Shown here piece after piece: positions 948-32,663 of a stretch of 64,000 nucleotides of DNA. The DNA is from Vicinamibacterales bacterium. GTDB taxonomy: Bacteria; Acidobacteriota; Vicinamibacteria; Vicinamibacterales; CAVVIG01. The first letter of the stretch is position 1. The number at the start of each line of letters is the position of its first letter. The notes under the pieces were generated by a model. The model did no database searches. It was not told the origin of the DNA and saw only the letters and a list, made by a program, of their open reading frames with translations. The stretch is from contig JBEBGG010000002.1 of assembly GCA_040081555.1 (NCBI GenBank), positions 1,692 through 65,691 of the forward strand. Direction: 5' to 3'. The translations under genes were made by a program, and so were the position numbers.

Positions 948-961
948 GCGTAGCCTCTCGC

Positions 962-2296: not shown

Positions 2297-2322
2297 GAAC
2301 GAATTCCTTCGGCCTGGCCGGG

Positions 2323-3465
2323 TTACTTCCGCGCTGACAGCCAGCCGAACAGCCGGCCAGTATCCTCGGCGGTCTCGGTACCGGTGGTGGCCGTTGCCTT
2401 GCCCTCGAGAGACTTCGCCATCGCGTAGAACGCTTCGGCAAGCCGACCCTGAGATGTGGATGCCACGGGCACGCCCTTGTTGGCGGCCGACATGGCTTGA
2501 CGGTAGTCATTCGGCAGCACGTGCTCAATCGGCACGCTGACCGCCTTGGCGATGTCTTCGAGCGAGATCTCCGAGCTGCGGTCCGAGCGGTTGACGATCA
2601 CCTTGACGCGATCGCCGTAGCGCTGTTGCAGGCGCTTGACCAGCGGCTGCGCGTTCTTGACCGTCGGTAGTTCCTGATTGACGACGACGAAAATCGCGGT
2701 GGTCGAATCGAGTGATTCGAGCAACGCCAGGTCCCGGCGCGGCACATCCAGAATCACGAAGGGCTTGAATGAATGGACGAACTCGAGCAGTGTGCGAACA
2801 TGCTGGGGATCGATGCTGCCGGGCACCCGCGTTGAGGCCGCGAGCAGATCGAGTCCCGACTTGGTCTTGGTGAGCAGTCCGCTCAAGAATGCCGCGTCGA
2901 GACGATGCGTGTTCTCAAGCGCCTCAATGACGGTGAAACGAGGGGCCACCCCGAGGAACACGGCCGTGTCACCGGTGCCAACGTGCAGGTCGATCAGCAA
3001 TGTTTCACGCCGGCTGCGCGCCAGCGCTTCGGCCAGGTTGACCGCCACCGTCGTGGCGCCGACTCCGCCTTTGGCGCCAATTACCGCCACGAGATGGGTG
3101 TCAACGGTGGGCGTGACCTTTGGAACAATCAAGCGATCCAGCGAACTGCGGAGGGTGTCCGCGGTCAGCGGTTCGACCGCCACCTCGGTCACTCCGGCGC
3201 GCATCGCTTCAAGCATCAACTCCGGCTCAAAGGCTTTGGCGATGAGCGCGATGGCGGTCGACGGAAACCGCCGCTTGATCAGCGAGACCAGTGCCAGGTT
3301 GTTCCGGTCCGTGCGTACGTCGAGGAGCACGGCGTCCGGCATCCCCATGGGCCGGGTCGTGGTCAGCACATCTGGCTGGATCGACGCCGGCTTCATGCCC
3401 AAATCCTTGACGAGCAGTTCGAGCTCTCGCCCGTCTCCCCCGATGATTGCGACAGTGCTGCTCAA
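2323..3465 (-). CDS. cpaE: Pilus assembly protein CpaE/TadZ (receiver-like N-domain plus MinD/ParA-type ATPase)
   Basis: Deviant Walker A 'IGAKGGVGATTVAVNLAEALA'. The longest ORF (to 3585) would overlap cpaC by 83 nt. I prefer TTG at 3465, which is preceded by GAGG. Start is uncertain. Confidence 0.85.
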   Translation of the reverse strand: MSSTVAIIGGDGRELELLVKDLGMKPASIQPDVLTTTRPMGMPDAVLLDVRTDRNNLALVSLIKRRFPSTAIALIAKAFEPELMLEAMRAGVTEVAVEPLTADTLRSSLDRLIVPKVTPTVDTHLVAVIGAKGGVGATTVAVNLAEALARSRRETLLIDLHVGTGDTAVFLGVAPRFTVIEALENTHRLDAAFLSGLLTKTKSGLDLLAASTRVPGSIDPQHVRTLLEFVHSFKPFVILDVPRRDLALLESLDSTTAIFVVVNQELPTVKNAQPLVKRLQQRYGDRVKVIVNRSDRSSEISLEDIAKAVSVPIEHVLPNDYRQAMSAANKGVPVASTSQGRLAEAFYAMAKSLEGKATATTGTETAEDTGRLFGWLSARK

Positions 3466-3502
3466 GACCTGACCTCGTGCTCTGACCCTGACATGTGAGT
3501 GA

Positions 3503-4885
3503 TCAATTCGATTTCTTTCCGGCTGCCGCGGTGCCACCCCGCACACGGTTAAGCAGCGCGGACGCATCGTCTTGGAGAAACTCATCCGCGCTGGTCGGCA
3601 GCGTCGGCACTTCGTCCGGATTGAGCGGACGAACCAGGTGCGGTGTGACGAGTACCATCAGCTCGGTCTTCTGCTGACGGAGTGCACGGCTCTTGAACAG
3701 CGCGCCAATGATCGGCAAGTTGCCCAGGATGGGAATCGCCGAACGATCTGTCTGCGCGATGTTGTTCATGAGCCCGGCGATCGCAAATGACTGCCCGTCT
3801 CGAAGCTCGACTTCGGTGTCGGCCTTTCGCGTCGACAGGGCCGGGATTCTGAATCCGGAGAGCGTGACGCCATTTGCGAAGTCGAGGGTGCTGACCTCCG
3901 GTTTGATGTTCAGGCGAATCATGTCGCCCGCGATCGTCGGCGTGAAGGCGAGGCGGACTCCGAATTCCTTGTAGACCACCGAGACGGCACCGGCTCCGCC
4001 TGAGCCACCTTGCACCACCGGGACAGGGACCTCACCGCCGGCGAGAAAGCTGGCCTCCTTGCCGTTGTAGGCGATCAGGTTCGGTTCAGCGAGCGTCTGA
4101 AGCAGTCCTTTGGATTCGAGCGCCTTCAGCACACCACCAATGTTCTCCTTCGTGTTGAACAAGAAGATGTTTAGAAAGTCACTGAATGTCAGCTTGTCGT
4201 CTTCGAACGACGGCGCCGAGAATTGTTGGGTGCTGGTGCGGCCGACCCAGTCCCTGGAGCCCAAGGCTCCGGTGAAGAACGACACGCCCGATTCCCGCAG
4301 CGCCTGACGATTCACTTCAGCGAAGCGCACCTGTAGCATCACTTGCTGGCTGCCAAGGCCTGAGGGTGTCTGGAGCAGGTTGATCAGGGCCAGCTTCGGC
4401 GCGGCCTTGGAGGCAATCTGGCCCGCCTTCAGCATGACGTCGTTGCTCGACACGCCGCCAGACAGGGTCAGTGACTCCTCTGTCGTCGTCACGGTGATGT
4501 TCTCTCCGGGAAACTGGGAGCGCAGCAACTGCTGCAGGGGGCTGCTTGGCGGCTCGACGACAACGTCAAACTGCAGACGATTGGCGCCGGCTCCTCCCCA
4601 GACGATCAAGCTCACGGTACCGGCGGACTTACCGTCGACCAGCACCTCTCTGGGCGCCACAACGACGGCGTCAGCGATGGCGGGGTTGGTGATGGCGATC
4701 CGATTCACGTCGAACTCGGTCGTGACCACCGTCGACCGTCCGGCCATGACATTAATGCGGGCCACCGCGGGGGTCTGGGCCGAGGCGAGGCCGGCAAAGG
4801 CCAGCGTCAGGAGCGTGGCCGCGAGCGCAGCCAGTCGTGTGCGCATGGCCGCGCCTGTCGTGAATGTCGCGTGTCCGATACTCAT
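3503..4885 (-). CDS. cpaC: Outer-membrane secretin CpaC/RcpA
   Basis: 460 aa. Signal peptide (MRTRLAALAATLLTLAFAGLASAQ) and a secretin C-domain ('LGNLPIIGALFKS...TELMVLVTPHLV'). ATG at 4885 overlaps the cpaB stop (ATGA). Confidence 0.92.
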   Translation of the reverse strand: MSIGHATFTTGAAMRTRLAALAATLLTLAFAGLASAQTPAVARINVMAGRSTVVTTEFDVNRIAITNPAIADAVVVAPREVLVDGKSAGTVSLIVWGGAGANRLQFDVVVEPPSSPLQQLLRSQFPGENITVTTTEESLTLSGGVSSNDVMLKAGQIASKAAPKLALINLLQTPSGLGSQQVMLQVRFAEVNRQALRESGVSFFTGALGSRDWVGRTSTQQFSAPSFEDDKLTFSDFLNIFLFNTKENIGGVLKALESKGLLQTLAEPNLIAYNGKEASFLAGGEVPVPVVQGGSGGAGAVSVVYKEFGVRLAFTPTIAGDMIRLNIKPEVSTLDFANGVTLSGFRIPALSTRKADTEVELRDGQSFAIAGLMNNIAQTDRSAIPILGNLPIIGALFKSRALRQQKTELMVLVTPHLVRPLNPDEVPTLPTSADEFLQDDASALLNRVRGGTAAAGKKSN

Positions 4886-5766
4886 TGCAATGTCTCTTCG
4901 CTGCGCTTGGCTCCGCGAATCGCTTCGACGCTATAGCGGACCGGCGCTGGGGGAACAACAACTGGAGGGGGGGCGACGACGCGCACCGGCCGTGGGGCGA
5001 CGCGGACGCTCTTGTCGATCGCGGGCGTGGGCGCCGGCGGAGGAACGAGGAAGGGCTCGCCAAACAGTGTGGCCGTCTTGCTGCCCGGAGTTGTCGTCGG
5101 TTCGACGTCCATGGGGTTTCGGAGCGACAGCATGATCTGGCCGTCGTTCGAGGCCAGCACCACGCGCTCGGCGTCACTTGGTGCGAGGAGCAGCGTCACG
5201 ACGGAGGACGGCATCGCTTCAGCGGGTTTGGATTTGTCTTGTGCGTAACTGGTGCCCGCGGTCAGCACGGTCACGTTGCCGACCACCACACGAGTGACGC
5301 TGGTCTGGTCCTGCTGTTTCAGTGTCACCAGCACGTCGACTCGAGTGCCAGGCGTCACGAATCCGGCAACGCCGACGACCTCGTTGACGCGTACCGAGAT
5401 GGCGCGCATGCCGGTGGGAATGGTCGGTGGCAGGCCCGCACCGGCTTCAAGGGGCGCCAGTTTCGTTTCAGAAAGCGGCTCGTTCTCAAGCAGGGCGGAC
5501 ACGACGCCGCGATTGACAACCTGCTCGAGTTTCTCAAATGCCCCGGGCAGCTTAGCGCTTGACGGCCAGGCGACGAGCTTGACGTCGGCGTCGGTGACCC
5601 GGGCGCCAGCCGGAAGTGCATGGGTCGCCGCCACCACGAAGGTGTGCGCGACTTCAACCTCGCGGACCGGCATGCTCTTGACGGCGCGATAGACGCCGAA
5701 GCTGGCGAGCCCCGCGGTCGCAACGGCGATGACCACAACGATGAGCGTGCGTGAATTGCGATTCAT
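4882..5766 (-). CDS. cpaB: Flp pilus assembly protein CpaB (SAF domain)
   Basis: Internal ATG at 5766 gives 'MNRNSRTLIVVVIAVATAGLASFGVYRAV', the typical CpaB N-terminal anchor. Pro-rich C-terminus. The longer ORF (to 5853) overlaps cpaA. Confidence 0.88.
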   Translation of the reverse strand: MNRNSRTLIVVVIAVATAGLASFGVYRAVKSMPVREVEVAHTFVVAATHALPAGARVTDADVKLVAWPSSAKLPGAFEKLEQVVNRGVVSALLENEPLSETKLAPLEAGAGLPPTIPTGMRAISVRVNEVVGVAGFVTPGTRVDVLVTLKQQDQTSVTRVVVGNVTVLTAGTSYAQDKSKPAEAMPSSVVTLLLAPSDAERVVLASNDGQIMLSLRNPMDVEPTTTPGSKTATLFGEPFLVPPPAPTPAIDKSVRVAPRPVRVVAPPPVVVPPAPVRYSVEAIRGAKRSEETLQ

Positions 5767-5803
5767 AATCGAGAACCCTTCAGAGTCGTGTGCAACCTGA
5801 GCG

Positions 5804-6328
5804 TCAGTGCCACAGCAGGGCGCCGGCCGTACCCACCGCAATTGGCAGGGCATACGGCAGGCGAGTGCCGCGGGCTTGCGACAGCGTCAATTCCGACAGC
5901 GGACTGATGCCGGCGATGCGCCAATGGGTTAGTAGCAGCGACACGTTGGCGATAGCGTGCTTGAGATACCCAGTGGCCAGCGAGACGAGGATTGCCAGCA
6001 CGCCGCCGGCCACCATCGTGTACATCGACATCCAGAAGGCGTCGCGAGGCGCGATCCACGCGCCCACCGCAGCCGCCAGCTTCACGTCACCGGCGCCCAG
6101 GCCGCCAAGTGCAAAAAATGGAAGGAACAGCGCGCAGCCGGTGAACCAGCCTCCAGCGCTTGTCAGTAATCCCGAGACACCGTGTGTCGCCATCGCATAT
6201 CCGAGAGCAGCCGCGGCGGCGCCAAACGTCAGCGCATTTGGAATGCGCCGGGTTCGCAGGTCGAAACCCGAAGCCGCGAGCGCAACGGCGAGCGCGGCTA
6301 GATGTTGAGGTTGCAGACTTGCGTTCAT
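5804..6328 (-). CDS. cpaA: Prepilin peptidase CpaA (A24 aspartic peptidase)
   Basis: 'FDLRTRRIPN' and 'GLGAGDVKL' carry the two catalytic Asp motifs. Polytopic. I prefer the ATG at 6328 (MNASLQPQHL...). Confidence 0.88.
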   Translation of the reverse strand: MNASLQPQHLAALAVALAASGFDLRTRRIPNALTFGAAAAALGYAMATHGVSGLLTSAGGWFTGCALFLPFFALGGLGAGDVKLAAAVGAWIAPRDAFWMSMYTMVAGGVLAILVSLATGYLKHAIANVSLLLTHWRIAGISPLSELTLSQARGTRLPYALPIAVGTAGALLWH

Positions 6329-6375
6329 GTGCCTGTCTCTTGGTCTATGTTCGTGCTGTGACGCTGAGAAGTGCG

Positions 6376-6408
6376 GTCGGGCGGCCACTTATACGTGGCC
6401 GGCCCGAC
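6376..6408 (-). terminator. GC-rich hairpin just after the flp stop (partial terminator or mRNA stabiliser candidate)
   Basis: gtcgggcggccac / ttatac / gtggccggcccgac gives a 13-bp stem with a 1-nt bulge and a 6-nt loop. It lies 15 nt downstream of the flp stop on the transcribed strand. No U-tract follows, so it is not a canonical intrinsic terminator. Confidence 0.4.
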
Positions 6409-6422
6409 TCTTGGTGTTGCTG

Positions 6423-6596
6423 CTACGAGCCGGTCGCGACGCTGGTGCTGATGGCGGTGAACTGGCCGCTCAGTGCGGTCTTGACACCAGACATCGCCGT
6501 GGTCACACCGAGGGCGATGATCGCTGCCAACAGGGCGTATTCGATCAGGTCCTGGCCTTCCGTCTCCTGAATGAATCGAGCAAAGAACTTCTTCAT
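6423..6596 (-). CDS. flp: Flp-family type IVb pilin (57 aa), missed by the ORF track
   Basis: Manual translation: MKKFFARFIQETEGQDLIEYALLAAIIALGVTTAMSGVKTALSGQFTAISTSVATGS*. It has the Flp motif G/xxxxEY followed by a hydrophobic helix. AGGAG lies 8 nt upstream of the ATG. Position is first in the tad operon. Confidence 0.9.
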   Translation of the reverse strand: MKKFFARFIQETEGQDLIEYALLAAIIALGVTTAMSGVKTALSGQFTAISTSVATGS

Positions 6597-6694
6597 CTAG
6601 CTATCTCCTTGAACTGGGCTGTTGCCGATCGCGTCCGTCCACCGCGGGCTGCGGAGCGACGCTGAGTGTTCTATCGGCGATGGACGCGGTGAGG

Positions 6695-7984
6695 TTAGAG
6701 AGGAAATTCCGACGATTGCGGTAGCGCGCGGCGACGCGCTGATGTGAGAAACGCTGGCGCTTCAAAGGACAGCGCTGTGGCCACGATCGTCACAACCGCT
6801 AGGACGATCACCGATGGCTGGAGGTGCAACTGCGGAGCCCAGAAGCCCAGAGAGGGCGCCGCGAAACCCAGGATCAGAAGTGCCCCAAATCCTCGAGTCA
6901 CCGCCAGTGACATGTGGGATTCAGACAGGAAATCCCAGAGCAGAAGGCCCGCGGGCGTGAGGATGACGAGGTCGTACACGTAGATGTGTGGATTGATGAG
7001 TACGGTCGTTGTCATCAGCACCGTGAACCGAAGTCGCAGGTCGCCTTGACGCCGCCAACACGTGATCGCGATCGCGAGCGTGCACAGGGACGCCGCAATC
7101 GTTGCAGCCAGCAGCGGCGTCCCCTCGAGGCCCGTCATCTGGAAGAAGGCGCGCCAGCCGTGCAGATGACGCTTCTCCGGCTCAATCAGCATCACCGTCG
7201 ACGGAATTCGCCGAACCGCCTCGAGATACGCCGGCAGAACGGCGACTCCCCAATAGGCGGCGGCGGCGAGAAGCTGCGCGGCAGCACCAACGATTGCGCC
7301 CACCACGACCCGCCAATGGCCCGCGGCTACAAAGAGCAGCGCAGAGGCGAGACCGAGCTGTGGCTTGTAGAACAGACCACCAATCGCCAGTCCCGCAAGG
7401 AAGGGGCGATGATGGCGAAGGCCAAGGTAGGCCCCTCCGAAACACAGCAACGCCAGCGCGGAGGTCTGCCCATACATCAACACAAAATGAAGCGCGGGAG
7501 AGACGGTCAATAGCGCGAACACCTGCCACGCGCGAGACCGCAGATTCTGGCACTTCCGCCACACTGCCCACGCCGTGACGAGATAGAGCGTAGCCGTGAC
7601 CGCCATCCACACGATCAGTGCCGGCACATACGGCAAAGCCGCCAGGGGGCGGAAGAGCATCGCCACTTGCGGACCATAGGACGGCGGGAACGCCACGTCC
7701 ACGTAGGCCGGCACGTGCTGCATCAGCAGCAGTTTCTGGGCAGGCTCGTCAAAGAGGAGAGTGGCGTCGTGGATTCGCGCCACGGCGCCGAGGATGTAGA
7801 AATGCGCAAAGTCGCGAAAGACCAGCGCCGTCGGACCGAACCAGGTGAAGGGCAGCTGCTGAATGAACACCTGCCAGATGTAGATGGCCCAGAGATACAG
7901 GGGCAGCATGACGAGCTGGCTGCGAATTAGGCGATGCTGCGCCGGGGTCAATTCGCGGGCCTTCGTCTGCGGGCGTGGGTTCAT
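6695..7984 (-). CDS. Polytopic membrane protein, DUF2029/GT87-like (GT-C fold candidate)
   Basis: 429 aa with many hydrophobic helices by eye. An early loop 'FRDFAHFYILGAVAR' recalls PimE-type GT87 proteins. The ATG overlaps the stop of the upstream DUF362 gene (ATGA). Coding is confident; the family is recalled, not searched. Confidence 0.6.
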   Translation of the reverse strand: MNPRPQTKARELTPAQHRLIRSQLVMLPLYLWAIYIWQVFIQQLPFTWFGPTALVFRDFAHFYILGAVARIHDATLLFDEPAQKLLLMQHVPAYVDVAFPPSYGPQVAMLFRPLAALPYVPALIVWMAVTATLYLVTAWAVWRKCQNLRSRAWQVFALLTVSPALHFVLMYGQTSALALLCFGGAYLGLRHHRPFLAGLAIGGLFYKPQLGLASALLFVAAGHWRVVVGAIVGAAAQLLAAAAYWGVAVLPAYLEAVRRIPSTVMLIEPEKRHLHGWRAFFQMTGLEGTPLLAATIAASLCTLAIAITCWRRQGDLRLRFTVLMTTTVLINPHIYVYDLVILTPAGLLLWDFLSESHMSLAVTRGFGALLILGFAAPSLGFWAPQLHLQPSVIVLAVVTIVATALSFEAPAFLTSARRRALPQSSEFPL

Positions 7985-8976
7985 GGAGGATTCGGTAGTC
8001 GCAACCTCCGTATCGGCTCAATCACGTCGAAACTGGTGCTGAACCTGGCAAGCCGTTCGCCCCGCTGCTCGATGCGCCGTTCATCAATGTTACCGATGAA
8101 CTCGCTCGCCACCTTGAGATACGGCATCTTGTCCGGGTCGAGACCGATCAGCCGCGCGCACGTCGCGTCCACCGCTGGGAGATCGGTACCCATGGCGATG
8201 ACGCCGACGGGGCGCGGGCGGCCCATGATCGGCCCGTCGCCTTCCATGCCGACGATGCCATCGACGATCGACAGGGCCGGCCGGATGGTGGCAGTCAGAT
8301 CGACAATCGACTGCTCGATGCCATGGACGTGGAGCAGATTCTTCGGCCAACCATACACGGCGCCCGGCACGGTGCCGAACAGATTCTTCATGCTCGCGGT
8401 CATGCCAGCCCAGTGGTGCGTCTTCAACTTCGGCATAGTGACCACGACGTCAGCGTCGAGCAATGTCACTGGAAGCCATAGACTCTGCATGCCGGTGTAG
8501 CGGCTCTTCAGCGCGGTCTCACGCACGTCGTCGTGATTCAGATCAACAAACTGCAATCGGAGATCGCGAAGCACCTCCAACATGCCGGTGCCCGCGAGGA
8601 GGTATTCGACATCGCGGCGGTGGCCCGGGCCCTCACCAACGACCACCTGCTTCGCGCCTCGAGAGAGAAATGCAGTGGCGGCACCAGCCACGACCAGTGG
8701 ATTGGTGTTGATGGCCTTGTCGGCCTCGTACTCGACCATGTTGGGCTTGAGGAAGACGCGCTTGCCCCGGACGACGACGCCGAGCATGTCGAGACCGCGG
8801 CCGATCACATCAGCGAGGTCTGTATCGTAGGAGGCGGGCAAAAGCGCCACCGGCGAGAGGATCGACCGGGCGAAGTCTGACGCGAGATACGGCGCCTGGC
8901 GACAGGCGGCTGCCGCCGCCGCCCCAAGCGGCAGCGTCTTCAAAAAGGCGCGCCGCGAGAACTCAAGCCGGGACAC
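7981..8976 (-). CDS. Tat-exported DUF362 domain protein
   Basis: N-terminus 'MSRLEFSRRAFLKTLPLGAAAAAA' is a canonical twin-arginine motif (SRRxFLK). 'VFLKPNMVE', 'MPKLKTHHWAGMTASMKNLFG' and 'IVDGIVGMEGDGP' are DUF362-like. Confidence 0.75.
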   Translation of the reverse strand: MSRLEFSRRAFLKTLPLGAAAAAACRQAPYLASDFARSILSPVALLPASYDTDLADVIGRGLDMLGVVVRGKRVFLKPNMVEYEADKAINTNPLVVAGAATAFLSRGAKQVVVGEGPGHRRDVEYLLAGTGMLEVLRDLRLQFVDLNHDDVRETALKSRYTGMQSLWLPVTLLDADVVVTMPKLKTHHWAGMTASMKNLFGTVPGAVYGWPKNLLHVHGIEQSIVDLTATIRPALSIVDGIVGMEGDGPIMGRPRPVGVIAMGTDLPAVDATCARLIGLDPDKMPYLKVASEFIGNIDERRIEQRGERLARFSTSFDVIEPIRRLRLPNPP

Positions 8977-9898
8977 GAAGAGTCCTCGCCTGATGCTGCG
9001 CGGCGGTCAATGCATGAAGCGCAATCGCCATCGGGTACACGTTTCCCAGCGCCTGGGTGTTCTCTGCCGCCAGGGCTAGTCGGGCCTCAACCTCGGTCGT
9101 GTCACGGTCGTAGATGCGCAAGCAGAGCGCCGTCAGTCCCAGCGCCATGCCGGAGATCTCCTTGACGCGCGCCTGATCGAGAAAGGCAAGCCCTCGCATC
9201 ACGACGGGCTGAGCGCGTCGATCGTGAAGCGCCAGTAGTGCCGTGGCAGTGGGTGGTACGTGTGGACGAAGATCCTGGCCAAGGGCGCTCGCGTTGCCAA
9301 AATTCCAGCCTCCGGTCTGGCAGCTTCTGTTCTCCATCATCCGCTCGGCCTCGGCGAGACGATCGGCGGCGCCTGGCGTGTCGAGCGCGCGAAACTTCTT
9401 GAGCGCCAGAACGCACCAGGCCGTGGGTTCCAGCCAACTGAACGTGTCCGGGTACCAGGGCCACGCTTGAAGCGTGTTGTCTTGACGCGTATCCGTTTCG
9501 TTGACCTTGATGCCCTTGACTGCAACGATGCCGCGAAGCAGCCGCGGCAAGAATGTGGCCCGCAATTCAGGGAAGAGATCGGCCAGGATGCACGCGGCGA
9601 GCCCTTCGGCCATCAGATTCGGTGACGATTGCGCCGTGTCGGTGAGCAGGCCGTCGCTTCGCTGACAGCCCTGAAGAAAAGTCACATGCGGGACCGCAAA
9701 CGCCGACCAATCCGCGTCGGTGCCAGACCAGGCACCGCGCAGAGCCAGCAAGGCCCAGCAGGTCGGTTCGATGCGACTGCCCTTGCCCGCGTAGTACGGC
9801 CAGCCGCCAGAGGTATTGGCCGCACGTGTCACGCAGTCCGTCAGTTCGGCTGCTCGCTGCTCTTCGAGCGCTCCCGCCACTGCCGCTATTGTATCCAT
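8963..9898 (-). CDS. Alpha/alpha-toroid repeat protein (prenyltransferase / squalene-cyclase-like repeats)
   Basis: Three repeats of the pattern 'GGW(P/N)..., EPT(C/A)W(A/C)(L/V)LAL' (also 'PPTATALLAL'). ATG at 9898 is preferred, because the longer ORF to 10069 overlaps the upstream gene. The 3' end overlaps the DUF362 start by 14 nt. No obvious signal peptide. Confidence 0.6.
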   Translation of the reverse strand: MDTIAAVAGALEEQRAAELTDCVTRAANTSGGWPYYAGKGSRIEPTCWALLALRGAWSGTDADWSAFAVPHVTFLQGCQRSDGLLTDTAQSSPNLMAEGLAACILADLFPELRATFLPRLLRGIVAVKGIKVNETDTRQDNTLQAWPWYPDTFSWLEPTAWCVLALKKFRALDTPGAADRLAEAERMMENRSCQTGGWNFGNASALGQDLRPHVPPTATALLALHDRRAQPVVMRGLAFLDQARVKEISGMALGLTALCLRIYDRDTTEVEARLALAAENTQALGNVYPMAIALHALTAAQHQARTLRVPA

Positions 9899-9915
9899 CG
9901 GGCCCGTGCCAACCC

Positions 9916-11391
9916 CTAGGGTGCACAGCTCGAGGCCGGAAGACCGGCGCGCAAAGGCGCGCGGTCCTGCCGGCGGAGCACGACGCTTGCGCCGGTGTCG
10001 ATGTCGACGGTGTAGCCATGATGCGCAAACCACATGGCCGCCGCGTCGCCACTCCGTCCACGGAGCCACGCATAGTCGGGATTGGTGCGGCTGACGAACG
10101 CCTCGAGCACATCCGGACGGCCAAGCGCCACAAGCTGTTGCTCCTCGAGCGTGGCGGCGCTGTAGACCGTTTCTCGGCGGCCGTCAGTCGACACCTGCAA
10201 TCGTGGTCCCCAGTGCCAGATCGCATATTCGCCCCAGTCAAACGGCACGACAATGCGTCCGCGCACTTCTGGTGCCGAGAGCGCACTGGCGGCAATCGGG
10301 TCTGGGCGCCAGGCCGCCGGGATCTCGAGGCAGCGCGCCTGAGGAAGGAACAGCGGCACGGTCACCGCGAGCACCGTGACTGCGTCGATCAATTGCGTCG
10401 AGGCGAGCCTTGGCTGCACACCGGCCGCGGACGCGGTCGGCTCAGCGCCGTCCCGGCGCCACGCCTCCAGTACGCAGACGCAGGCCATGAACGAAAACAG
10501 TGGTGCGAGGCGGGCCACGAAGAGCGCGTTCAGGCCAAGCCAACAGGCCGGCAGTAGACGCGCCCACGACACGTGCCGCCAGCGCGCAGTGATGGTCGTT
10601 GCAAGAATACCGATGGTCAGCGGCAGCAGCACGATCTGCGCAGGCTCGAACGCCTCCCAATAGGGTCGCCACTCAGTGATGTCTGGACGACTCATTCCCA
10701 CGGTGTCTGCCAGAAATTGCCAAAGCCTCCACCCGTATGGGTTGGCGATAGTGGCCACGACACTGAATGCGACGACTGCCGCGGGCATGACGACAGGACG
10801 CCACGTCCGTGTGTCGATGACGCGTCCAGCCAGCCAGAGTCCACAGACACCAACGCCGACGATCCATCCGCCGTGCAGGTTGGCCCAAGCCACAAAGATG
10901 AGCGGCAACCAGGCGATTCGCGCCCGCCCGGCAAGAATGGTGGACACGATCGCCAGGCCCAGGACTGTCCACAGATGCGGGCGAAACGTGGAGGCGAGCG
11001 GCGCGCAGCCAACGAATGCCACCGCAAGGAGCCAGCCTCGGTACTCCTGGCGGGTCGACTCGCCGAGGCGCGCCAGCAACCAGAAGGCTAGACCCACGAT
11101 GGCCATCTTCAGCGTCATCAGGCCGGCCACGCCTCCCGCTCGATACGCCTGGGCGAACAGCCACTCGCTCAGCCACTCGTGGTTGACCCACGGGACATCC
11201 TGCGTAAACGAATAGGGATCGACGCTTGGCAGGCGACCGGACGTTGCCAGGTCGAGCCCGAAACGGAGATGACCCCAGAAGTCTGGGTCCGGCGCGCTTC
11301 GAACACAGACAATTGCGGCAGCAATCAGTGCGGCGAGTCGGCCTGCGGGCGCAGCGGCGGTTTTAGCGGTGGTGGTCGATTCCTTCGACAC
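9916..11391 (-). CDS. Large polytopic membrane protein with a C-terminal soluble domain, family not recognised (GT-C-like architecture)
   Basis: 491 aa. The N-terminal ~350 aa is strongly hydrophobic. The early loop reads 'DPDFWGHLRFGLDLATSGRLPSVDPYSFTQDVPWVNHEWLSEW'. First gene of the minus-strand operon that continues into flp-tad. Confidence 0.5.
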   Translation of the reverse strand: MSKESTTTAKTAAAPAGRLAALIAAAIVCVRSAPDPDFWGHLRFGLDLATSGRLPSVDPYSFTQDVPWVNHEWLSEWLFAQAYRAGGVAGLMTLKMAIVGLAFWLLARLGESTRQEYRGWLLAVAFVGCAPLASTFRPHLWTVLGLAIVSTILAGRARIAWLPLIFVAWANLHGGWIVGVGVCGLWLAGRVIDTRTWRPVVMPAAVVAFSVVATIANPYGWRLWQFLADTVGMSRPDITEWRPYWEAFEPAQIVLLPLTIGILATTITARWRHVSWARLLPACWLGLNALFVARLAPLFSFMACVCVLEAWRRDGAEPTASAAGVQPRLASTQLIDAVTVLAVTVPLFLPQARCLEIPAAWRPDPIAASALSAPEVRGRIVVPFDWGEYAIWHWGPRLQVSTDGRRETVYSAATLEEQQLVALGRPDVLEAFVSRTNPDYAWLRGRSGDAAAMWFAHHGYTVDIDTGASVVLRRQDRAPLRAGLPASSCAP

Positions 11392-11454
11392 GGAGGCAAT
11401 CGTAGTCGAGACGGTGCGGATCCTGGCCAGGTTCGGCCGATACTATCCACGCCA

Positions 11455-12900
11455 ATGCCGCAGGGCCGTCAACGTCAGGGATGGCTGAGTGCGGGAGTCG
11501 TGGTCGCAATGGCGACCCTCCTCCGCCTTCCTGGTTTAGCCAACGATCTCTGGCTCGACGAAGTGTGGTCTGTCACCAATGTCGCCGGGCTTCATTCGTG
11601 GCGGGATGTATTCACCTCGGTGCGTGTCGACAACAACCACCACTTGAACAGCCTGTGGCTCTACTGGGTGGGCGATCGGATGTCGGCCACGCTCGATCGC
11701 GCGCCGGCACTGCTGTGCGGCATCGGTACAGTCATTGTCGCGTTTGCGCTGGGGGCCCGGGATCATCTCCGAACCGCGGTGGTCACCTCAGCGCTGTTCG
11801 CTCTGTCATTTCTGATGATCTACTACTCCTCCGAGGCACGCGGCTACGCCCCGGTGGTGTTCTTCGCAATGGCTGGCTGGTTCAGCTTGAGGGAATACGC
11901 GAAACGAGGGACCTGGCTTCCACTCGTTTCTTTCTGGACCTGCTGCGGCGCCGGTGTGCTGGCCCACCAGACCTTCATCGCCTTCTTCGCTGCTGGACTG
12001 TTCTGGTGTGACGCGCACGTCCAGCGCCACACGAGATCGATTCGAGTAGCGAGCGGCCGCACCCTGGTTGCATTCGCGCCGCCAGGACTCTTCTTCTTGG
12101 GCTTCTATCTGGTCTCGATTCGCGGCGCCGCAATCATGGGTGGACCGACGGCCGGCACGGCAGTCGTGTTCGCGGAGACGCTTTCCCTGCTCGGAAGCGG
12201 ACCTTCGCATGGCCCGGGGATCTGGGCATGCGCCCTGTTGGTTGGTGGCGCCTTCATTGCCTCCGTGGCGCTGATGGCACGGCGCGGCGACGATCGGTGG
12301 CTGTTATACGCCATCGGCGGCCTCGCCATGCCGGCGCTTTTTGCGGCGGTCCAGCAGGCAGCCATATACCCACGCTACTTCATCGTACCTGGCGCGTTCA
12401 TTCTGCTCGCCATCGGCGATCTATTGTCGCGGGCGCTTGAGGCTGGGACCCTCGCGCGCAGTGCAGCCCTGGCCGGCCTCGCCGCCATGTCACTGGGTAC
12501 CATCTTGAACGTCGCTGAACTCTTCCGTCTCGGCCGAGGGCGTTTCGACGAGGCGGTGAGGCACATGGCGGACACTCGCGCTGGGGCGGTCACCGTGGCG
12601 ACGGAGGCGGAGTTCTCGATGTTCGATGTCCGCTCCGACATGCTCATTGGCTACTTCGGGCGTGCCCTGCACGTAACCGATCACCTGCATTACGTGCCGG
12701 CTGGTTCCTATCCGATGTCTGGCACCGACTGGATGATTCGCGAAAGCCTTGGCGCGACGCCGCCTGCACCGACAATCGTCGACGCCAACGCCAACGAGTA
12801 CGTCTTTGATCGGGCCTACCGGTCCATGCCGCTTGCCGGCGTCGACTGGCTCCTCTACAAACGCAACAACACGCCACTTCGCACGGCCCCCGGTCGTTGA
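11455..12900 (+). CDS. PMT_2/ArnT-like glycosyltransferase (GT39/GT83-type GT-C candidate)
   Basis: ATG at 11455 was chosen because the longest ORF (from 11179) would overlap the divergent gene. 'LRLPGLANDLWLDEVWSV' is the first-loop DE motif typical of PMT/ArnT-family enzymes. The rest is polytopic. Confidence 0.6.
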   Translation: MPQGRQRQGWLSAGVVVAMATLLRLPGLANDLWLDEVWSVTNVAGLHSWRDVFTSVRVDNNHHLNSLWLYWVGDRMSATLDRAPALLCGIGTVIVAFALGARDHLRTAVVTSALFALSFLMIYYSSEARGYAPVVFFAMAGWFSLREYAKRGTWLPLVSFWTCCGAGVLAHQTFIAFFAAGLFWCDAHVQRHTRSIRVASGRTLVAFAPPGLFFLGFYLVSIRGAAIMGGPTAGTAVVFAETLSLLGSGPSHGPGIWACALLVGGAFIASVALMARRGDDRWLLYAIGGLAMPALFAAVQQAAIYPRYFIVPGAFILLAIGDLLSRALEAGTLARSAALAGLAAMSLGTILNVAELFRLGRGRFDEAVRHMADTRAGAVTVATEAEFSMFDVRSDMLIGYFGRALHVTDHLHYVPAGSYPMSGTDWMIRESLGATPPAPTIVDANANEYVFDRAYRSMPLAGVDWLLYKRNNTPLRTAPGR

Positions 12901-15005
12901 ACGAGATGCGCCCTCTTCGTCTCGCCGTCGGTTGTAGCATCGGGCTCCTGCTCGTGGCGCTGATGTGGCCGCTGGCGACGGGACAGATCTTCGTTCGGGA
13001 CGATGTGGCCGGATTCCATCTGCCGGTCCGCTACCTGTATCAGCAGGCACTACTTGCCGGTGATTCGGTATTGTGGACACCGTCGCTCTACTCGGGCTTC
13101 TACCTGTTTGGCGAAGGGCAGGCGGGGATGGCGCACCCGCTGCATTGGTTCCTCTACAGGTGCTTTCCCCTGACGACCGCCCTCAACCTGGAGATTGTGG
13201 CCAGCTACCTGGCGCTTCTTGCCGGCGGCGCGTTGTTGCTCCGGCGCATGAGTTTCGCAGCACCCATAGCGTGGTTCGGCGGAATGGTGTTCGCATTCAG
13301 CGGTTCGACCCTCCTGCATCTAATGCACGTCAACGCCGTGGCCGTCATCGCCCACACACCATGGTTGCTGTTGGCGGCCGATATCCTCATGGCTTCAGAG
13401 CAGCGTGCCGCCAGGGCGATGGCCTTCGCCGGGATCTCAGTGCTGCTCGCCTCACAGCTCTTGCTCGGTCATCCGCAGTACGTGTCCATCTCCTGGATGG
13501 CGGTGGGCTACCTGGTGCTCTGCTCCAGCGGGGGGCCCCATCGAGGGCGGAGTCTGGTCCTGCTGTCTGGCGCCATTGTCTTGGGATGCGCAATGGCGGC
13601 CATCCAAGTGTTGCCGACGCTCGACGTGCTGCGTGATTCGCTCCATGCCAATCTGCCTGCGGATGTACAGCTCCAGGTCTCGCTTGACGTGCGCCGTGAC
13701 GTGTTCGTGTTCCTGTCGCCGGGGGCGGTGAGATTCGGTCTTCTTCACGAGTTCGCCACCTACAACGGGGCCTTCTGCACCGTCGCCCTTTGTTGGGTGG
13801 GTCTGCGATGGCGCACGATGACACGCCGCCGTGTTGCGCTCGCGTTGGTCGGACTCCTCGTGATTGGTTTCGTTCTTTCGCTCGGAAGCGCTGGCGGACT
13901 GTATCCGCTATTGGCGAAACTACCTGGAATGAACGCGTTCCGTGCGCCGGCGAGACATATCGTGCTCGCACACCTTGCGCTCAGCGGCCTGGCGGCGATC
14001 GTGCTCGAAGATCTGTGGTTGCTGCGTGAGCGCGATGAGATCGTCCCCCTTCGAACGTTCTATCCGCTAGCCATCGTCGCGTGGCTTGCCATCTTGATCA
14101 CCTTCAATGCGCCATCACCGACGACGGGCCCCTGGTTAATGAATCCATGGCTGTGGGTGGGGCTCCTGGTAGCCGTGACGGCACTCGTGATCCTGTCTAT
14201 GCAGGGGCGCAAGTGGGCCCTGCCGGCGTTGGTCGCACTCGTCGCCCTGGATCAGGGTCTGTGGGGCTTTGGCTACATCTACGATCGTGAGGGGCAAGGA
14301 CTCGCGACGATTGAATCGGTCATGACGGCCGAGCCGTCACCGCCTGCTCGCGCTGGCGAGTCGGTCTTTCAGGCTCTGGTGGAGGGCGATCGCGGGAATC
14401 TGGTGGTGCTTCATGGCCTGAAGCGCTCGAACGGCTACGCCGGACTCATGCCAGCAACGGAACTCAATCCGGCAGACCCTACGACTCAACGGCTCGGCGG
14501 CGTAGCATGGGCGCGGTCCGATGGCTCATGGTCCCGGGTTGAGGACCCGATGCCGCGAGCCAGACTGCTCGCTTCGTGGGTACAAAGCAGCGATGCGGGA
14601 CGCGATGTCCACACCGTCAACATCCATCGAACAGCCATCGTCAGGGGCCCGATCGGCTCGTTGGAGGGAGACCCCGGAGTCGTGCGCGTGGTCGTGGATC
14701 GACCAGGCCGACTGGTTCTGGACTCGGCGGCCGAAGGGCGGCAGTTGCTTGTGACGACCGAACGCTTTCACGTCGGCTGGAAAGTAACTGTCGACGACGA
14801 CGCGGCCACGACCATTCCGGTCTTCGGCGATTACCTCGGCGTTGTCGTACCAGCGGGCGCACATCGGGTACAGCTTCGCTTCGCACCTGAAAGCGTGGCG
14901 TGGGGCGCCCGGATCAGTATCCTCGGCGTCGCCGCCGCCGCGGGTCTGACGATGTTGCTGGCGTGGACGCCTCGCCAACATGTCGCTCGGCGGGCCAATG
15001 GCTGA
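12897..15005 (+). CDS. YfhO-like large polytopic membrane protein (GT-C candidate) with a C-terminal soluble domain
   Basis: 702 aa. N-terminus 'FVRDDVAGFHLPVRYLYQQALLAGDSVLWTPSLYSGFYLFGEGQAG' resembles the YfhO family. The start (TTG 12897 or ATG 12906) abuts or overlaps the stop of the upstream gene. Confidence 0.55.
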   Translation: MNEMRPLRLAVGCSIGLLLVALMWPLATGQIFVRDDVAGFHLPVRYLYQQALLAGDSVLWTPSLYSGFYLFGEGQAGMAHPLHWFLYRCFPLTTALNLEIVASYLALLAGGALLLRRMSFAAPIAWFGGMVFAFSGSTLLHLMHVNAVAVIAHTPWLLLAADILMASEQRAARAMAFAGISVLLASQLLLGHPQYVSISWMAVGYLVLCSSGGPHRGRSLVLLSGAIVLGCAMAAIQVLPTLDVLRDSLHANLPADVQLQVSLDVRRDVFVFLSPGAVRFGLLHEFATYNGAFCTVALCWVGLRWRTMTRRRVALALVGLLVIGFVLSLGSAGGLYPLLAKLPGMNAFRAPARHIVLAHLALSGLAAIVLEDLWLLRERDEIVPLRTFYPLAIVAWLAILITFNAPSPTTGPWLMNPWLWVGLLVAVTALVILSMQGRKWALPALVALVALDQGLWGFGYIYDREGQGLATIESVMTAEPSPPARAGESVFQALVEGDRGNLVVLHGLKRSNGYAGLMPATELNPADPTTQRLGGVAWARSDGSWSRVEDPMPRARLLASWVQSSDAGRDVHTVNIHRTAIVRGPIGSLEGDPGVVRVVVDRPGRLVLDSAAEGRQLLVTTERFHVGWKVTVDDDAATTIPVFGDYLGVVVPAGAHRVQLRFAPESVAWGARISILGVAAAAGLTMLLAWTPRQHVARRANG

Positions 15006-16170: not shown

Positions 16171-16537
16171 ACACGTCACCGCGTCTCACGTCAGCGGGCA
16201 CCTGCCCGGCCGCAAACTCAATAGTGGCGAATGCGCCAAATGAGCCGCTCAGGCGCCAGGCCGCCATAGAACGACGCACTTTCAGTACTCGGCCATCCTT
16301 CGCGACAAACACGACGTCGATCGGGAACTTCATGAAGAACGTGTGGACCGCGCTGCACGGCGCGATGATCATGGCCGTGCCCAGGGACAACGAGGTGTGG
16401 TTCAGGAGACCCGTACGCCGACTCGCCGAGTCGAAGGCGGTCAGCAGCGTCGACGCGACCACGGCGTCGGTGTTCGCGTTGATCAGTTGAAATTGCGACG
16501 AATCGTCGTTGAGAAGATGAGAGAGAAAATGCGCCAC
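16145..16537 (-). CDS. DUF192 domain protein
   Basis: 130 aa. 'RRTGLLNHTSL...GTAMIIAPCSAVHTFFMKFPIDVVFVAKDGRVLKV' fits the DUF192 pattern (GLM...MxFPIDvvF). Confidence 0.7.
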   Translation of the reverse strand: MAHFLSHLLNDDSSQFQLINANTDAVVASTLLTAFDSASRRTGLLNHTSLSLGTAMIIAPCSAVHTFFMKFPIDVVFVAKDGRVLKVRRSMAAWRLSGSFGAFATIEFAAGQVPADVRRGDVFSVVRVGR

Positions 16538-28637: not shown

Positions 28638-30146
<1,509 letters not shown>

Positions 30147-32658: not shown

Positions 32659-32663
32659 ATCTC

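What the first reader, a model, noticed from the sequence alone, without database searches (positions are those of the whole stretch)
6423..11391. The GT-C / DUF362 / toroid operon runs straight into flp and the tad machinery; the Flp pilin has a Ser/Thr-rich tail
Seen in sequence:
- Genes 9916-11391, 8963-9898, 7981-8976 and 6695-7984 are all on the minus strand. They sit directly upstream of flp (98-nt gap), cpaA, cpaB, cpaC, cpaE, cpaF and tadB. This forms one unbroken same-strand run of at least 11.4 kb.
- After the G/QDLIEY processing site, the mature Flp ends in 'TAISTSVATGS', where 6 of the last 11 residues are Ser or Thr.

Established knowledge: type IV pilins are O-glycosylated on C-terminal Ser/Thr in several bacteria by polytopic oligosaccharyltransferases (PilO/TfpO, PglL). 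TfpW-type GT-C arabinosyltransferases also modify pilins.

Inference: one or more of the adjacent GT-C-like proteins may glycosylate the Flp pilin, or build a pilus-associated glycan. To my knowledge, Flp (type IVc) pilin glycosylation by a dedicated multi-GT-C locus has not been described.
Basis: partly seen in the sequence, partly recalled or inferred. Interest (0 to 1): 0.6.

Follow-up and report, generated by a model that had tools for sequence, protein, structure and literature searches.

The report
Glycosyltransferase gene conserved beside Flp pilin
In a soil Acidobacteria (Vicinamibacterales) genome, a membrane sugar-transferase gene sits directly upstream of the gene for the tiny Flp pilus subunit, and this pairing recurs in relatives, so these adhesive pili may be sugar-coated by a dedicated enzyme, which remains unproven.

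Summary
Positions 1-11391 form one minus-strand run: a 491-aa membrane protein, a toroid-like protein, DUF362, a GT87 protein, Flp, CpaA/B/C/E/F and TadB. Flp ends in TAISTSVATGS.

- **Enzyme identity.** The gene next to flp (6695-7984) is a GT87 glycosyltransferase; its model best matches mycobacterial PimE. The first gene (9916-11391, no Pfam family) models as a GT-C resembling STT3, AglB, DPY19 and ArnT.
- **Conservation.** GT87 lies within 1.6 kb upstream of flp in about 15 distinct tad loci. This survives rearrangement: pseudopilin genes inserted upstream, GT87 inverted, or DUF362/toroid absent. A separate Terriglobia clade pairs GT87 with an orphan flp.
- **Contrast group.** About 12 related tad loci lack the whole cassette, and their Flp tails are Ser/Thr-poor and charged.
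- **Caveats.** The correlation follows clades and rests on few independent events. Ser/Thr-rich tails are common in Flp (22% of relatives have ≥6 of 11) and form the pilus surface. Caulobacter's pilus shows no glycan. Two Ser/Thr-rich loci lack an adjacent GT87. The divergent GT-C genes keep their synteny without tad.

Verdict: a plausible, unproven pilin-associated glycosyltransferase, and a new variant of the TfpW/TfpO arrangement in a Tad pilus.

The parts
6423..6596 (-). flp: a 57-aa Flp/Fap prepilin. It has a G/QDLIEY processing motif, and the mature pilin ends in FTAISTSVATGS.
   Evidence: Translation. Pfam PF04964, 34.3 bits, above cut-off. A 100% identical protein is named 'Flp family type IVb pilin [Vicinamibacterales bacterium]'.
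6597..6694 (-). The 98-nt gap between GT87 and flp, with an AAGGAG ribosome-binding site. A CGATAGAAC-like motif is shared with L001, L003 and L098 and could be flp's own promoter.
   Evidence: Sequence. The scan found no sigma-70 promoter or terminator match. Alignment. The fold is not unusually stable (z = -0.63).
6695..7984 (-). GT87a: a 429-aa polytopic GT-C glycosyltransferase of family GT87 (PimE-like). This is the gene whose adjacency to flp is conserved.
   Evidence: Pfam PF09594, E = 3e-27. AF2 model pLDDT 88.5. The Foldseek top hits are PimE 9dm5 and 9dm7, followed by GPI-MT-I, ALG3 and ALG6. D58 is nearly invariant, lying in the DF..FY motif after TM1. Adjacency to flp is shown.
7981..8976 (-). 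A 331-aa DUF362 protein with a twin-arginine (SRRAFLK) N-terminus. Its stop overlaps the GT87a start (ATGA).
   Evidence: Pfam PF04015, E = 6e-49. Weak match to a TAT-signal model. Junction. DUF362 belongs to the LarA clan CL0471 (PMC11770544).
8963..9898 (-). A 'toroid-like' protein of about 311 aa with no signal peptide. It overlaps the DUF362 start by 14 nt.
   Evidence: Only sub-threshold Prenyltrans and SQHop_cyclase hits (E 0.06-0.1). Homologues of 303-309 aa always sit directly upstream of DUF362. The ATG at 9898 is shown.
9916..11391 (-). M491: a 491-aa polytopic protein with no Pfam family. It is predicted to be a GT-C class A enzyme: a helical transmembrane domain plus a C-terminal periplasmic alpha/beta domain. 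It has an invariant D35-x-D37 after TM1.
   Evidence: No Pfam, NCBIfam or PDB sequence hit. AF2 model pLDDT 90.7. Foldseek top hits are STT3/OST, AglB, DPY19, ArnT, PglB and AftA. Invariant residues. A 100% identical protein comes from a Vicinamibacterales MAG.
6376..6408 (-). A 13-bp GC-rich hairpin between flp and cpaA with no U-tract. It may act as an attenuator or RNA-stability element that raises pilin expression relative to the machinery.
   Evidence: Fold. Sequence.
5804..6328 (-). cpaA (tadV) prepilin peptidase. The probable ATG is at 6328. The longest ORF starts at 6388, inside the hairpin.
   Evidence: Pfam PF01478. The 174-aa length matches homologues. The ATG is shown.
1..5853 (-). 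The tad machinery: cpaB 4882-5853, cpaC 3503-4885, cpaE 2323-3585, cpaF 962-2296, and tadB, which is cut off by the start of the window.
   Evidence: ORFs. They are 66-89% identical to Pfam-annotated RcpC, secretin, CbiA and T2SSE genes of L001. The TadB frame is shown.
11179..16170 (+). Divergent GT-C genes. A PMT_2-like gene at 11179-12900 (probable start about 11455), a YfhO-like gene at 12897-15005, and a second GT87 (GT87b) at 14980-16170. These are probably not specific to Flp.
   Evidence: Pfam results: PMT_2 E = 0.018, below cut-off; YfhO 30.6 bits; GT87 E = 6e-24. The same PMT_2, YfhO, DUF192, GT87 and Dus synteny occurs without tad machinery in L172.
16145..16537 (-). A DUF192 gene that marks the far edge of the cassette. 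In related tad loci without the cassette, DUF192 lies 240-1330 bp upstream of flp.
   Evidence: Pfam PF02643. Gaps between DUF192 and flp are tabulated.

Best explanation
GT87a (6695-7984) is a pilin-associated periplasmic glycosyltransferase.

**Proposed mechanism.**
1. Prepilin Flp inserts in the inner membrane with its Ser/Thr-rich C-terminal tail in the periplasm. This topology is established for type IV pilins.
2. GT87a is a PimE-like GT-C whose active site faces the periplasm. It uses a polyprenyl-phosphate hexose, most likely mannose, to add or extend O-linked sugar on that tail. This happens before CpaF-driven assembly.
3. The filament surface, which is made of the pilin C-termini, then carries glycan.

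**Role of the upstream genes.** The translationally coupled genes upstream are M491 (a new STT3/PMT/ArnT-like GT-C), the toroid-like protein and the Tat-exported DUF362. They probably belong to the same pathway. M491 is the best candidate for the enzyme that puts the first sugar on Ser/Thr, by analogy with PMT followed by PimE in actinobacteria.

**Shown here:** gene identities, predicted folds, conserved adjacency, and the correlation with tail type.

**Inferred:** the substrate, the sugar, the order of steps, and that any glycosylation occurs at all.
For: **Enzyme identity.**
- GT87 Pfam hit.
- High-confidence model whose best solved match is PimE.
- Conserved Asp after TM1.

**Conserved adjacency across five architectures.**
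- DUF362-GT87-flp: window, L001, L003, L012, L018.
- DUF362-TadG-TadE-TadE-GT87-flp: L005, L013, L091, L173.
- GT87 x2, an epimerase, then flp x2, with no DUF362 or toroid: L014.
- GT87 inverted and divergent from flp: L127, L130, L132.
- Orphan flp divergent from GT87 with no tad genes, in Terriglobia: L033, L047, L053, L058, L076.

**Phylogeny.** The tad-linked GT87s form one clade, and the orphan-flp set is a separate subclade.

**Contrast group.**
- About 12 related tad loci have DUF192 directly upstream of flp and no cassette.
- Their Flp tails are Ser/Thr-poor and charged.

**Precedent.**
- The GT87 enzyme PimE elongates O-mannose on secreted proteins (PMC12757957).
- The Flp C-terminus forms the filament surface (PMC10710030).
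- Aggregatibacter Flp1 is reported to be glycosylated.

**M491.** Its model matches protein-modifying GT-C enzymes.
Against: - There is no experimental evidence of any kind. The organism is known only as a MAG.
- The tail-type correlation follows clades. The Mann-Whitney p of 5e-5 is not corrected for phylogeny and probably reflects only two or three independent events.
- Ser/Thr-rich tails are common in Flp. They have a simple structural explanation as the polar filament surface. The Caulobacter pilus showed no glycan density.
- L174 and L170 have Ser/Thr-rich Flp tails and the toroid/DUF362 genes, but no GT87 next to flp.
- About 70 Terriglobia homologues at similar identity are not near flp.
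- The solved structures closest to GT87a are PimE, ALG3, and GPI mannosyltransferase I. They act on lipid-linked glycans.
- No polyprenyl-phosphate-sugar synthase (GT2) lies in the window's cassette.
- flp may have its own promoter.
Confidence: 0.45

Rival explanations
1. The cassette builds a periplasmically assembled envelope lipoglycan or adhesive polysaccharide, in the way mycobacterial GT-C enzymes build LM/LAM. It sits beside tad because both serve adhesion and are co-regulated. On this reading the pilin itself is not modified.
For: - Several GT-C genes are clustered: M491, GT87a, a PMT_2-like gene, YfhO and GT87b.
- GT87a's closest solved relatives act on lipid-linked acceptors.
- GT2, epimerase, PAP2 and phosphodiesterase genes join the cassette in relatives.
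- The PMT_2, YfhO and GT87 synteny exists without tad.
- The M491 family is large and has tandem paralogues.
- Most Terriglobia homologues are unlinked to flp.
Against: - This does not explain why one specific GT87 stays immediately next to flp when pseudopilin genes are inserted upstream of it.
- It does not explain the adjacency when GT87 is inverted.
- It does not explain the adjacency when the rest of the cassette is absent (L014).
- It does not explain why an orphan flp pairs with GT87 in Terriglobia.
- It does not explain the link with Flp tail type.
Confidence: 0.28
2. The adjacency is neutral inherited synteny within one Vicinamibacteria-like lineage. GT87a has an unrelated housekeeping role, and the Ser/Thr-rich tail is simply that lineage's Flp subtype.
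For: - All tad-linked GT87s fall in one clade.
- The two tad-locus types differ in many other respects, including an extra long pilin, spacing and CpaF identity.
- L170 and L174 lack the adjacent GT87 yet keep Ser/Thr-rich tails.
Against: - The adjacency persists down to about 40% GT87 identity while neighbouring gene order, gene content and orientation all change.
- There is an independent orphan flp-GT87 pairing in another class.
- DUF362 and GT87a are translationally coupled, and the operon runs directly into flp.
Confidence: 0.15
3. GT87a, alone or with M491, modifies another Tad component rather than the major pilin. Candidates are the TadE/TadF/TadG pseudopilins or a periplasmic part of the machinery.
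For: In L005, L013, L091 and L173, GT87 lies between the TadE-like pseudopilin genes and flp. Pseudopilins share the pilin's membrane topology and processing.
Against: - The window, L001 and L003 have no pseudopilin genes next to GT87.
- The Terriglobia pairs contain only flp.
- The correlation found is with the Flp tail.
Confidence: 0.07

Closest known systems
TfpW and TfpO (PilO) pilin glycosylation in Pseudomonas aeruginosa type IVa pili (from my own knowledge, not tested here)
   Same: A polytopic periplasm-facing glycosyltransferase gene lies directly beside the major pilin gene. It uses a lipid-linked sugar donor, and Ser/Thr residues of the pilin are the target.
   Different: - Different pilus class: Tad/Flp (type IVc) with a pilin of about 43 aa and no globular domain.
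- Different enzyme family: GT87, PimE-like.
- The gene lies upstream of the pilin gene rather than downstream.
- Homology to TfpW or TfpO was not tested.
- Glycosylation here is only predicted.
Actinobacterial protein O-mannosylation: PMT (GT39) initiates and the GT87 enzyme PimE elongates, using polyprenol-phosphate-mannose (PMC12757957)
   Same: GT87a is a GT87 protein whose best structural match is PimE. It is encoded alongside a second GT-C of the protein-modifying structural class (M491) and a weak PMT_2-like protein.
   Different: - Identity to PimE is only about 21%.
- There is no bona fide GT39 PMT; the PMT_2 hit is below cut-off.
- No Ppm1-like synthase lies in the window's cassette.
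- The phylum is different, and the presumed substrate is a single dedicated pilin rather than many secreted proteins.
Caulobacter crescentus Cpa/Tad pilus (PilA) and the Aggregatibacter Flp1/tad locus
   Same: The same machinery set is present: Flp, A24 peptidase, CpaB/RcpC, secretin, CpaE, CpaF, TadB. The polar C-terminal pilin tail forms the filament surface.
   Different: - To my knowledge those loci carry no GT-C, DUF362 or toroid genes; this rests on memory and was not checked here.
- Caulobacter PilA showed no glycan density.
Archaeal type IV pilin and archaellin N-glycosylation by AglB (a GT-C)
   Same: M491's model resembles AglB and STT3. Tad pili are considered to be of archaeal origin.
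   Different: There is no sequence-level similarity to AglB. No N-x-S/T sequon occurs in the window's Flp (sequence). M491 does not track flp as closely as GT87a does.

Membership tests
GT87 / DUF2029 (Pfam PF09594; PimE-like GT-C) - for GT87a, 6695-7984 | The profile match exceeds the curated cut-off. | tested here: met
   96.3 bits against a cut-off of 25, E = 3e-27, covering profile positions 3-237 of 237.
GT87 / DUF2029 (Pfam PF09594; PimE-like GT-C) - for GT87a, 6695-7984 | A polytopic all-helical GT-C fold resembling PimE. | tested here: met
   AF2 pLDDT 88.5, pTM 0.88. Foldseek rank 1-2 are PimE 9dm5 and 9dm7 (E = 3e-6 and 1e-4, TM 0.54-0.63). Next come GPI-MT-I, ALG3, ALG6 and ALG9.
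GT87 / DUF2029 (Pfam PF09594; PimE-like GT-C) - for GT87a, 6695-7984 | A catalytic Asp in the first periplasmic loop (D58 in PimE, from memory). | tested here: inconclusive
   D58 is at least 90% conserved, within the motif [RTA]DFx[HQ]FY, and lies just after TM1 (helix 14-42). Its equivalence to the PimE residue was not checked residue by residue.
GT87 / DUF2029 (Pfam PF09594; PimE-like GT-C) - for GT87a, 6695-7984 | Uses polyprenyl-phosphate-mannose as donor. | not testable with these tools
   This needs biochemistry. No Ppm1-like GT2 is in the window's cassette. GT2 genes do occur in the cassettes of L013 and L014.
Pilin-adjacent pilin glycosylation system (TfpW/TfpO type) | The glycosyltransferase gene is directly adjacent to the major pilin gene, and this is conserved. 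| tested here: met
   The gap is 98 nt in the window. Adjacency holds in about 15 distinct tad loci plus one Terriglobia clade. L170 and L174 are exceptions.
Pilin-adjacent pilin glycosylation system (TfpW/TfpO type) | The pilin carries enzyme-dependent glycan. | not testable with these tools
   This requires mass spectrometry of the pilin with and without the enzyme.
Pilin-adjacent pilin glycosylation system (TfpW/TfpO type) | Sequence homology to TfpW or TfpO/PglL. | not tested
Pfam places GT87a in GT87, not in Wzy_C or O-antigen ligase families.
Tad / Flp (type IVc) pilus locus | A Flp prepilin with the G/XXXXEY motif, plus an A24 peptidase, RcpC/CpaB, a secretin, CpaE, the CpaF ATPase and TadB. 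| tested here: met
   Flp PF04964 and Peptidase_A24. The remaining genes are 66-89% identical to Pfam-annotated genes in L001. The TadB frame is shown.
GT-C class A (STT3/AglB/PglB, PMT, ArnT, DPY19-like) - for M491, 9916-11391 | A multi-helix transmembrane core with a C-terminal periplasmic domain, and acidic residues in the first external loop. | tested here: met
   AF2 pLDDT 90.7. Twenty-one PDB matches at E <= 1e-3, all STT3, AglB, DPY19, ArnT or PglB. D35 and D37 are invariant, as are H41, D47 and E72.
GT-C class A (STT3/AglB/PglB, PMT, ArnT, DPY19-like) - for M491, 9916-11391 | Membership of a named sequence family (PMT, STT3, PMT_2, ArnT and so on). | tested here: not met
   No Pfam, NCBIfam or PDB sequence hit. 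It works like a GT-C but is not filed under any described family.
Prenyltransferase / terpene-cyclase alpha-alpha toroid - for 8963-9898 | A profile match or fold evidence. | tested here: inconclusive
   Only sub-threshold hits: Prenyltrans E = 0.058, SQHop_cyclase_C E = 0.064, SQHop_cyclase_N E = 0.096.
Actinobacterial PMT + GT87 protein O-mannosylation pathway | A GT39 PMT initiator and a Ppm1 donor synthase are present together with the GT87. | tested here: not met
   The 573-aa protein matches PMT_2 at only 15.7 bits against a cut-off of 26.1. No Ppm1-like gene was found in the window ORFs scanned. The analogy is therefore functional and does not establish membership.

The most novel reading that the evidence does not exclude
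In a clade of Acidobacteriota, the Flp pilin is O-glycosylated by a dedicated periplasmic pathway encoded as a cassette inserted between DUF192 and flp. A previously undescribed GT-C family (M491, STT3/PMT-like) would start the glycan on the Ser/Thr-rich tail. A pilin-adjacent GT87 would extend it. A Tat-exported DUF362 (LarA-clan) and toroid pair would tailor the sugar or the lipid carrier. This would give the domain-less Tad filament a glycan coat in place of charged surface residues.
Probability: 0.25. Interest if true: 0.7.

Novelty: new variant of a known kind. Interest (0 to 1): 0.55.

Why it matters
Tad/Flp pili are widespread adhesion and surface-sensing organelles. Their 40-60-residue pilins have no globular domain, so the filament surface is just the pilin C-terminus.

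Flp glycosylation has been reported for Aggregatibacter Flp1. No responsible enzyme came up in the papers read here, and searches of the paper library found nothing linking GT87/DUF2029 or any glycosyltransferase to tad loci.

If the prediction holds, it would give:
- the first candidate enzyme for Flp glycosylation;
- a natural comparison between glycan-coated and charged-surface Tad pili in soil Acidobacteria;
- a protein substrate for a GT87 enzyme outside the Actinobacteria;
- a first functional context for a large unannotated GT-C family (M491) and for the DUF362/toroid gene pair.

The hypothesis can be tested directly by heterologous co-expression and intact-mass MS.

Tried and rejected
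- **Sequence searches of the PDB.** The GT87 profile, M491 and DUF362 gave nothing useful. Only predicted structures were informative.
- **Promoter and terminator scan of 5500-12000.** No sigma-70-like site was found, and terminator-like sites were at chance level. This can neither support nor refute co-transcription. Folding of the flp region was not unusually stable overall (z = -0.63).
- **L090.** It seemed to show M491, toroid and DUF362 without tad, but its DUF362 is split and inverted. It is probably an assembly artefact, so I set it aside.
- **L175.** flp lies 77 nt from the contig end, so the locus is uninformative.
- **Ser/Thr tail as evidence on its own.** Rejected, because 22% of related Flp sequences are at least as Ser/Thr-rich and the Caulobacter pilus shows no glycan.
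- **All GT-C genes forming one Flp-dedicated system.** Rejected for the divergent PMT_2-like, YfhO and GT87b genes because of L172.
- **N-glycosylation by an OST-like M491.** Considered and judged unlikely, because the window's Flp has no N-x-S/T sequon.
- **AFDB fold search.** The library was unavailable.
- **Literature searches.** Searches for GT87 or DUF2029 with pilin or tad, and for 'Tad pili' with glycosyltransferase, found nothing relevant.

Full report
**1. What is in the sequence**

The minus strand of window 1-11391 carries an unbroken series of genes:
- a TadB-like frame, cut off by the window start;
- cpaF 962-2296, cpaE 2323-3585, cpaC 3503-4885, cpaB 4882-5853;
- cpaA 5804-6328 (the longest ORF runs to 6388);
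- flp 6423-6596;
- a GT87 gene 6695-7984;
- a DUF362 gene 7981-8976;
- a toroid-like gene 8963-9898;
- a 491-aa membrane-protein gene 9916-11391, called M491 here.

The junctions are tight. There are 17 nt between M491 and the toroid gene, a 14-nt overlap between toroid and DUF362, and an ATGA overlap between DUF362 and GT87. A further 98 nt separate GT87 from flp.

Flp is MKKFFARFIQETEGQDLIEYALLAAIIALGVTTAMSGVKTALSGQFTAISTSVATGS (PF04964). Between flp and the probable cpaA start lies a 13-bp GC-rich hairpin at 6376-6408. No sigma-70-like promoter or terminator was detected in the GT87-flp gap. A short CGATAGAAC-like motif is shared with close relatives and could be flp's own promoter.

An identical M491 protein and an identical Flp are on record from a Vicinamibacterales MAG.

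**2. What the proteins are**

- **GT87a (6695-7984).** It matches Pfam GT87 at 96 bits. A 31-sequence alignment gave a confident model (pLDDT 88.5). The best solved matches are the mycobacterial mannosyltransferase PimE, followed by GPI mannosyltransferase I, ALG3, ALG6 and ALG9. An Asp at position 58, just after the first transmembrane helix, is nearly invariant.
- **M491.** It has no Pfam, NCBIfam or PDB sequence match. Its model (pLDDT 90.7) has a multi-helix membrane domain and a C-terminal alpha/beta domain. It matches STT3, AglB, DPY19, ArnT, PglB and AftA. D35 and D37 are invariant after TM1. It works like a GT-C of the protein- or lipid-A-modifying structural class but belongs to no described family. 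More than 1380 relatives were found.
- **DUF362 protein.** It has a twin-arginine N-terminus. DUF362 shares a Pfam clan with the LarA racemases and epimerases.
- **Toroid-like protein.** This label rests only on sub-threshold hits.
- **Plus strand.** Divergent from M491 are a weak PMT_2-like gene, a YfhO-like gene and a second GT87. DUF192 (16145-16537) and Dus follow on the minus strand.

**3. Is the neighbourhood conserved?**

*Starting from GT87a.* Homologues at 63%, 55% and 41% identity all sit directly upstream of flp and cpaA through tadC. A scan of one genome per species returned 80 loci, all Acidobacteriota. tblastn and an Flp HMM over these loci showed the GT87-flp-tad arrangement in L010-L014 and L018. 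The other loci, from Terriglobia, had GT87 without tad genes. In five of them (L033, L047, L053, L058, L076) an orphan flp lies 185-395 bp away in divergent orientation. Only unrelated genes surround it.

A neighbour-joining tree places all tad-linked GT87s in one clade. The orphan-flp set forms a separate small subclade.

*Starting from the tad side.* A CpaB-based metagenome scan gave 80 more loci. Four Flp-based look-ups added L172-L175.

Overall, GT87 lies within 1.6 kb upstream of the first flp in about 15 distinct tad loci, with five architectures:
- DUF362-GT87-flp;
- DUF362-TadG-TadE-TadE-GT87-flp (L005, L013, L091, L173);
- tandem GT87 genes, then an epimerase, then flp, with no DUF362 or toroid (L014);
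- GT87 inverted (L127, L130, L132);
- the Terriglobia orphan pairs.

**4. The contrast group**

About 12 distinct related tad loci have at least 2.5 kb of sequence upstream of flp and no GT87. These are L099, L102, L107, L110, L120, L124, L140, L144, L148, L152, L157 and L161. Their CpaF identity to the window is 71-74%. In most of those where DUF192 was detected, it lies 240-1330 bp upstream of flp (3.1 kb and on the opposite strand in L161). In the cassette-type loci, 6.5-10.7 kb of GT-C, toroid and DUF362 genes separate DUF192 from flp. The cassette therefore behaves as a discrete insertion or deletion at this one position.

The Flp tails differ between the two groups:
- GT87-adjacent Flp sequences end in tails such as FSSVSSSLQSAS, FTNISSSLGS and FSNIGNSITAGS. 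The last 11 residues hold a mean of 4.75 Ser/Thr and 0.46 charged residues.
- The others end in tails such as YFDDLNAKL, YFGDLVTALG and VYARIEGEVVKI. The means are 2.25 Ser/Thr and 1.45 charged residues.

The Mann-Whitney p-values are 5e-5 and 0.006.

**5. Limits of that evidence**

- The p-values ignore phylogeny. The two locus types are separate lineages that also differ in other ways. For example, the contrast type has an extra long pilin ending in QNAWQPCPPQPAACP. The number of independent events is probably two or three.
- Ser/Thr-rich tails are ordinary in this family. Among 132 nearest Flp representatives, 22% have at least 6 of 11.
[quoted passage not shown] Polarity alone can therefore explain the tail.
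- L174 (toroid-DUF362-TadE-TadE-flp-flp) and L170 (toroid-DUF362-DUF192-flp) have Ser/Thr-rich tails but no adjacent GT87.
- In L172 an orphan flp lies 2.8 kb from a GT87b-like gene. The surrounding PMT_2, YfhO, DUF192, GT87, Dus and GGDEF synteny contains no tad machinery. This shows that the divergent GT-C genes of the window are not tied to tad.
- No polyprenyl-phosphate-sugar synthase is in the window's cassette. GT2 genes do occur in the cassettes of L013 and L014.

**6. Most likely mechanism**

Type IV prepilins sit in the inner membrane with the C-terminal part in the periplasm, which is established knowledge. GT-C enzymes act on that face and use polyprenyl-phosphate sugars. The GT87 enzyme PimE is reported to extend O-mannose chains on mycobacterial secreted proteins after PMT has initiated them (PMC12757957).

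The best-supported reading is that GT87a adds or extends hexose on the Ser/Thr-rich Flp tail before assembly. M491 is the best candidate initiator, with the toroid protein and DUF362 as accessory factors. I put this at about 0.45.

The rivals are:
- an envelope glycan or adhesin pathway that is co-located with tad but does not modify the pilin (0.28);
- neutral inherited synteny (0.15);
- modification of pseudopilins rather than Flp (0.07).

**7. Comparison with what is known, and novelty**

The arrangement resembles TfpW and TfpO of Pseudomonas type IVa pili, where a glycosyltransferase gene lies beside the pilin gene. It also resembles the actinobacterial PMT plus GT87 pathway. It is not a demonstrated member of either:
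- the enzyme family and the pilus class differ from TfpW and TfpO;
- a true PMT and a Ppm1 are missing from the locus.

Aggregatibacter Flp1 has been reported as glycosylated, so Flp glycosylation itself is not new. Searches of the paper library found nothing linking GT87/DUF2029 or any glycosyltransferase to tad loci.

I rate this a new variant of a known kind. It is well supported as a conserved gene association but unproven as biochemistry. Interest 0.55.

Noticed in passing
L033, L047, L053, L058, L076 (about 9400-11250 in each locus): In one Terriglobia (Acidobacteriaceae) subclade, an orphan flp gene lies 185-395 bp from a GT87 homologue in divergent orientation. Its product ends in ...GQDVAEYAVML...NVFSQVGSSLGTQ. 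No tad machinery lies within 10 kb. The neighbours are TonB, an M48 peptidase and two-component regulators.
   Followed up: partly
window 16145-16537 (-); L099, L102, L119, L120, L124, L129, L140, L145, L148: DUF192 (COG1430) is a constant neighbour of flp. It lies 240-1330 bp upstream in tad loci without the cassette, and at the far edge of the cassette in loci that have it. DUF192 may itself be a tad-associated gene.
   Followed up: partly
L099, L102, L104, L107, L110, L124, L140, L152 (the last flp-like gene before cpaA): The cassette-free tad loci encode an extra, longer Flp-like pilin. Its conserved Cys- and Pro-rich C-terminus reads ...AYxGWNTAxQNAWQPCPPQPAxCP. This suggests a disulfide-bonded or tip-type minor pilin.
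   Followed up: no
window 9916-11391 (-); P0082-P0201; L090 10001-12907: M491 belongs to a large family (more than 1380 hits) that has no Pfam model but has a confident GT-C class A fold and an invariant DxD. Tandem paralogues occur, for example P0094 and P0106 on one contig.
   Followed up: partly
window 7981-9898 (-): DUF362 has a twin-arginine signal, while the overlapping upstream toroid-like gene has no signal peptide. The pair is always adjacent, which suggests Tat 'hitch-hiker' co-export of a complex. DUF362 is in the LarA clan, so it might act as a periplasmic epimerase.
   Followed up: no
window 6376-6408 (-): A strong 13-bp GC-rich hairpin with no U-tract lies immediately after flp. 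It overlaps the GTG start of the longest cpaA ORF, so cpaA more likely starts at the ATG at 6328.
   Followed up: partly
window 18177-19706 (+); L172 8464-10174: A response-regulator/GAF/GGDEF diguanylate cyclase lies next to Dus and DUF192. In L172 an orphan flp follows this gene directly, hinting at a c-di-GMP link with Flp expression.
   Followed up: no
window 42488-50302 (+) and 28638-41329 (-): The window spans the chromosomal origin region: dnaA, dnaN, gyrB and gyrA, with yidC, mnmE, mnmG, parB and ATP synthase genes nearby. The tad and GT-C locus lies about 26-36 kb from dnaA.
   Followed up: no
window 25944-28203 (-): A Wzt (with its C-terminal glycan-binding domain) and Wzm ABC-2 transporter pair is present. 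This is typical of O-antigen-type polysaccharide export. The same pair appears near the orphan flp locus L172.
   Followed up: no
L090 13842-15037: DUF362 is split, with its two halves on opposite strands. This is probably a chimeric or misassembled contig, so its apparent 'cassette without tad' is not reliable.
   Followed up: partly
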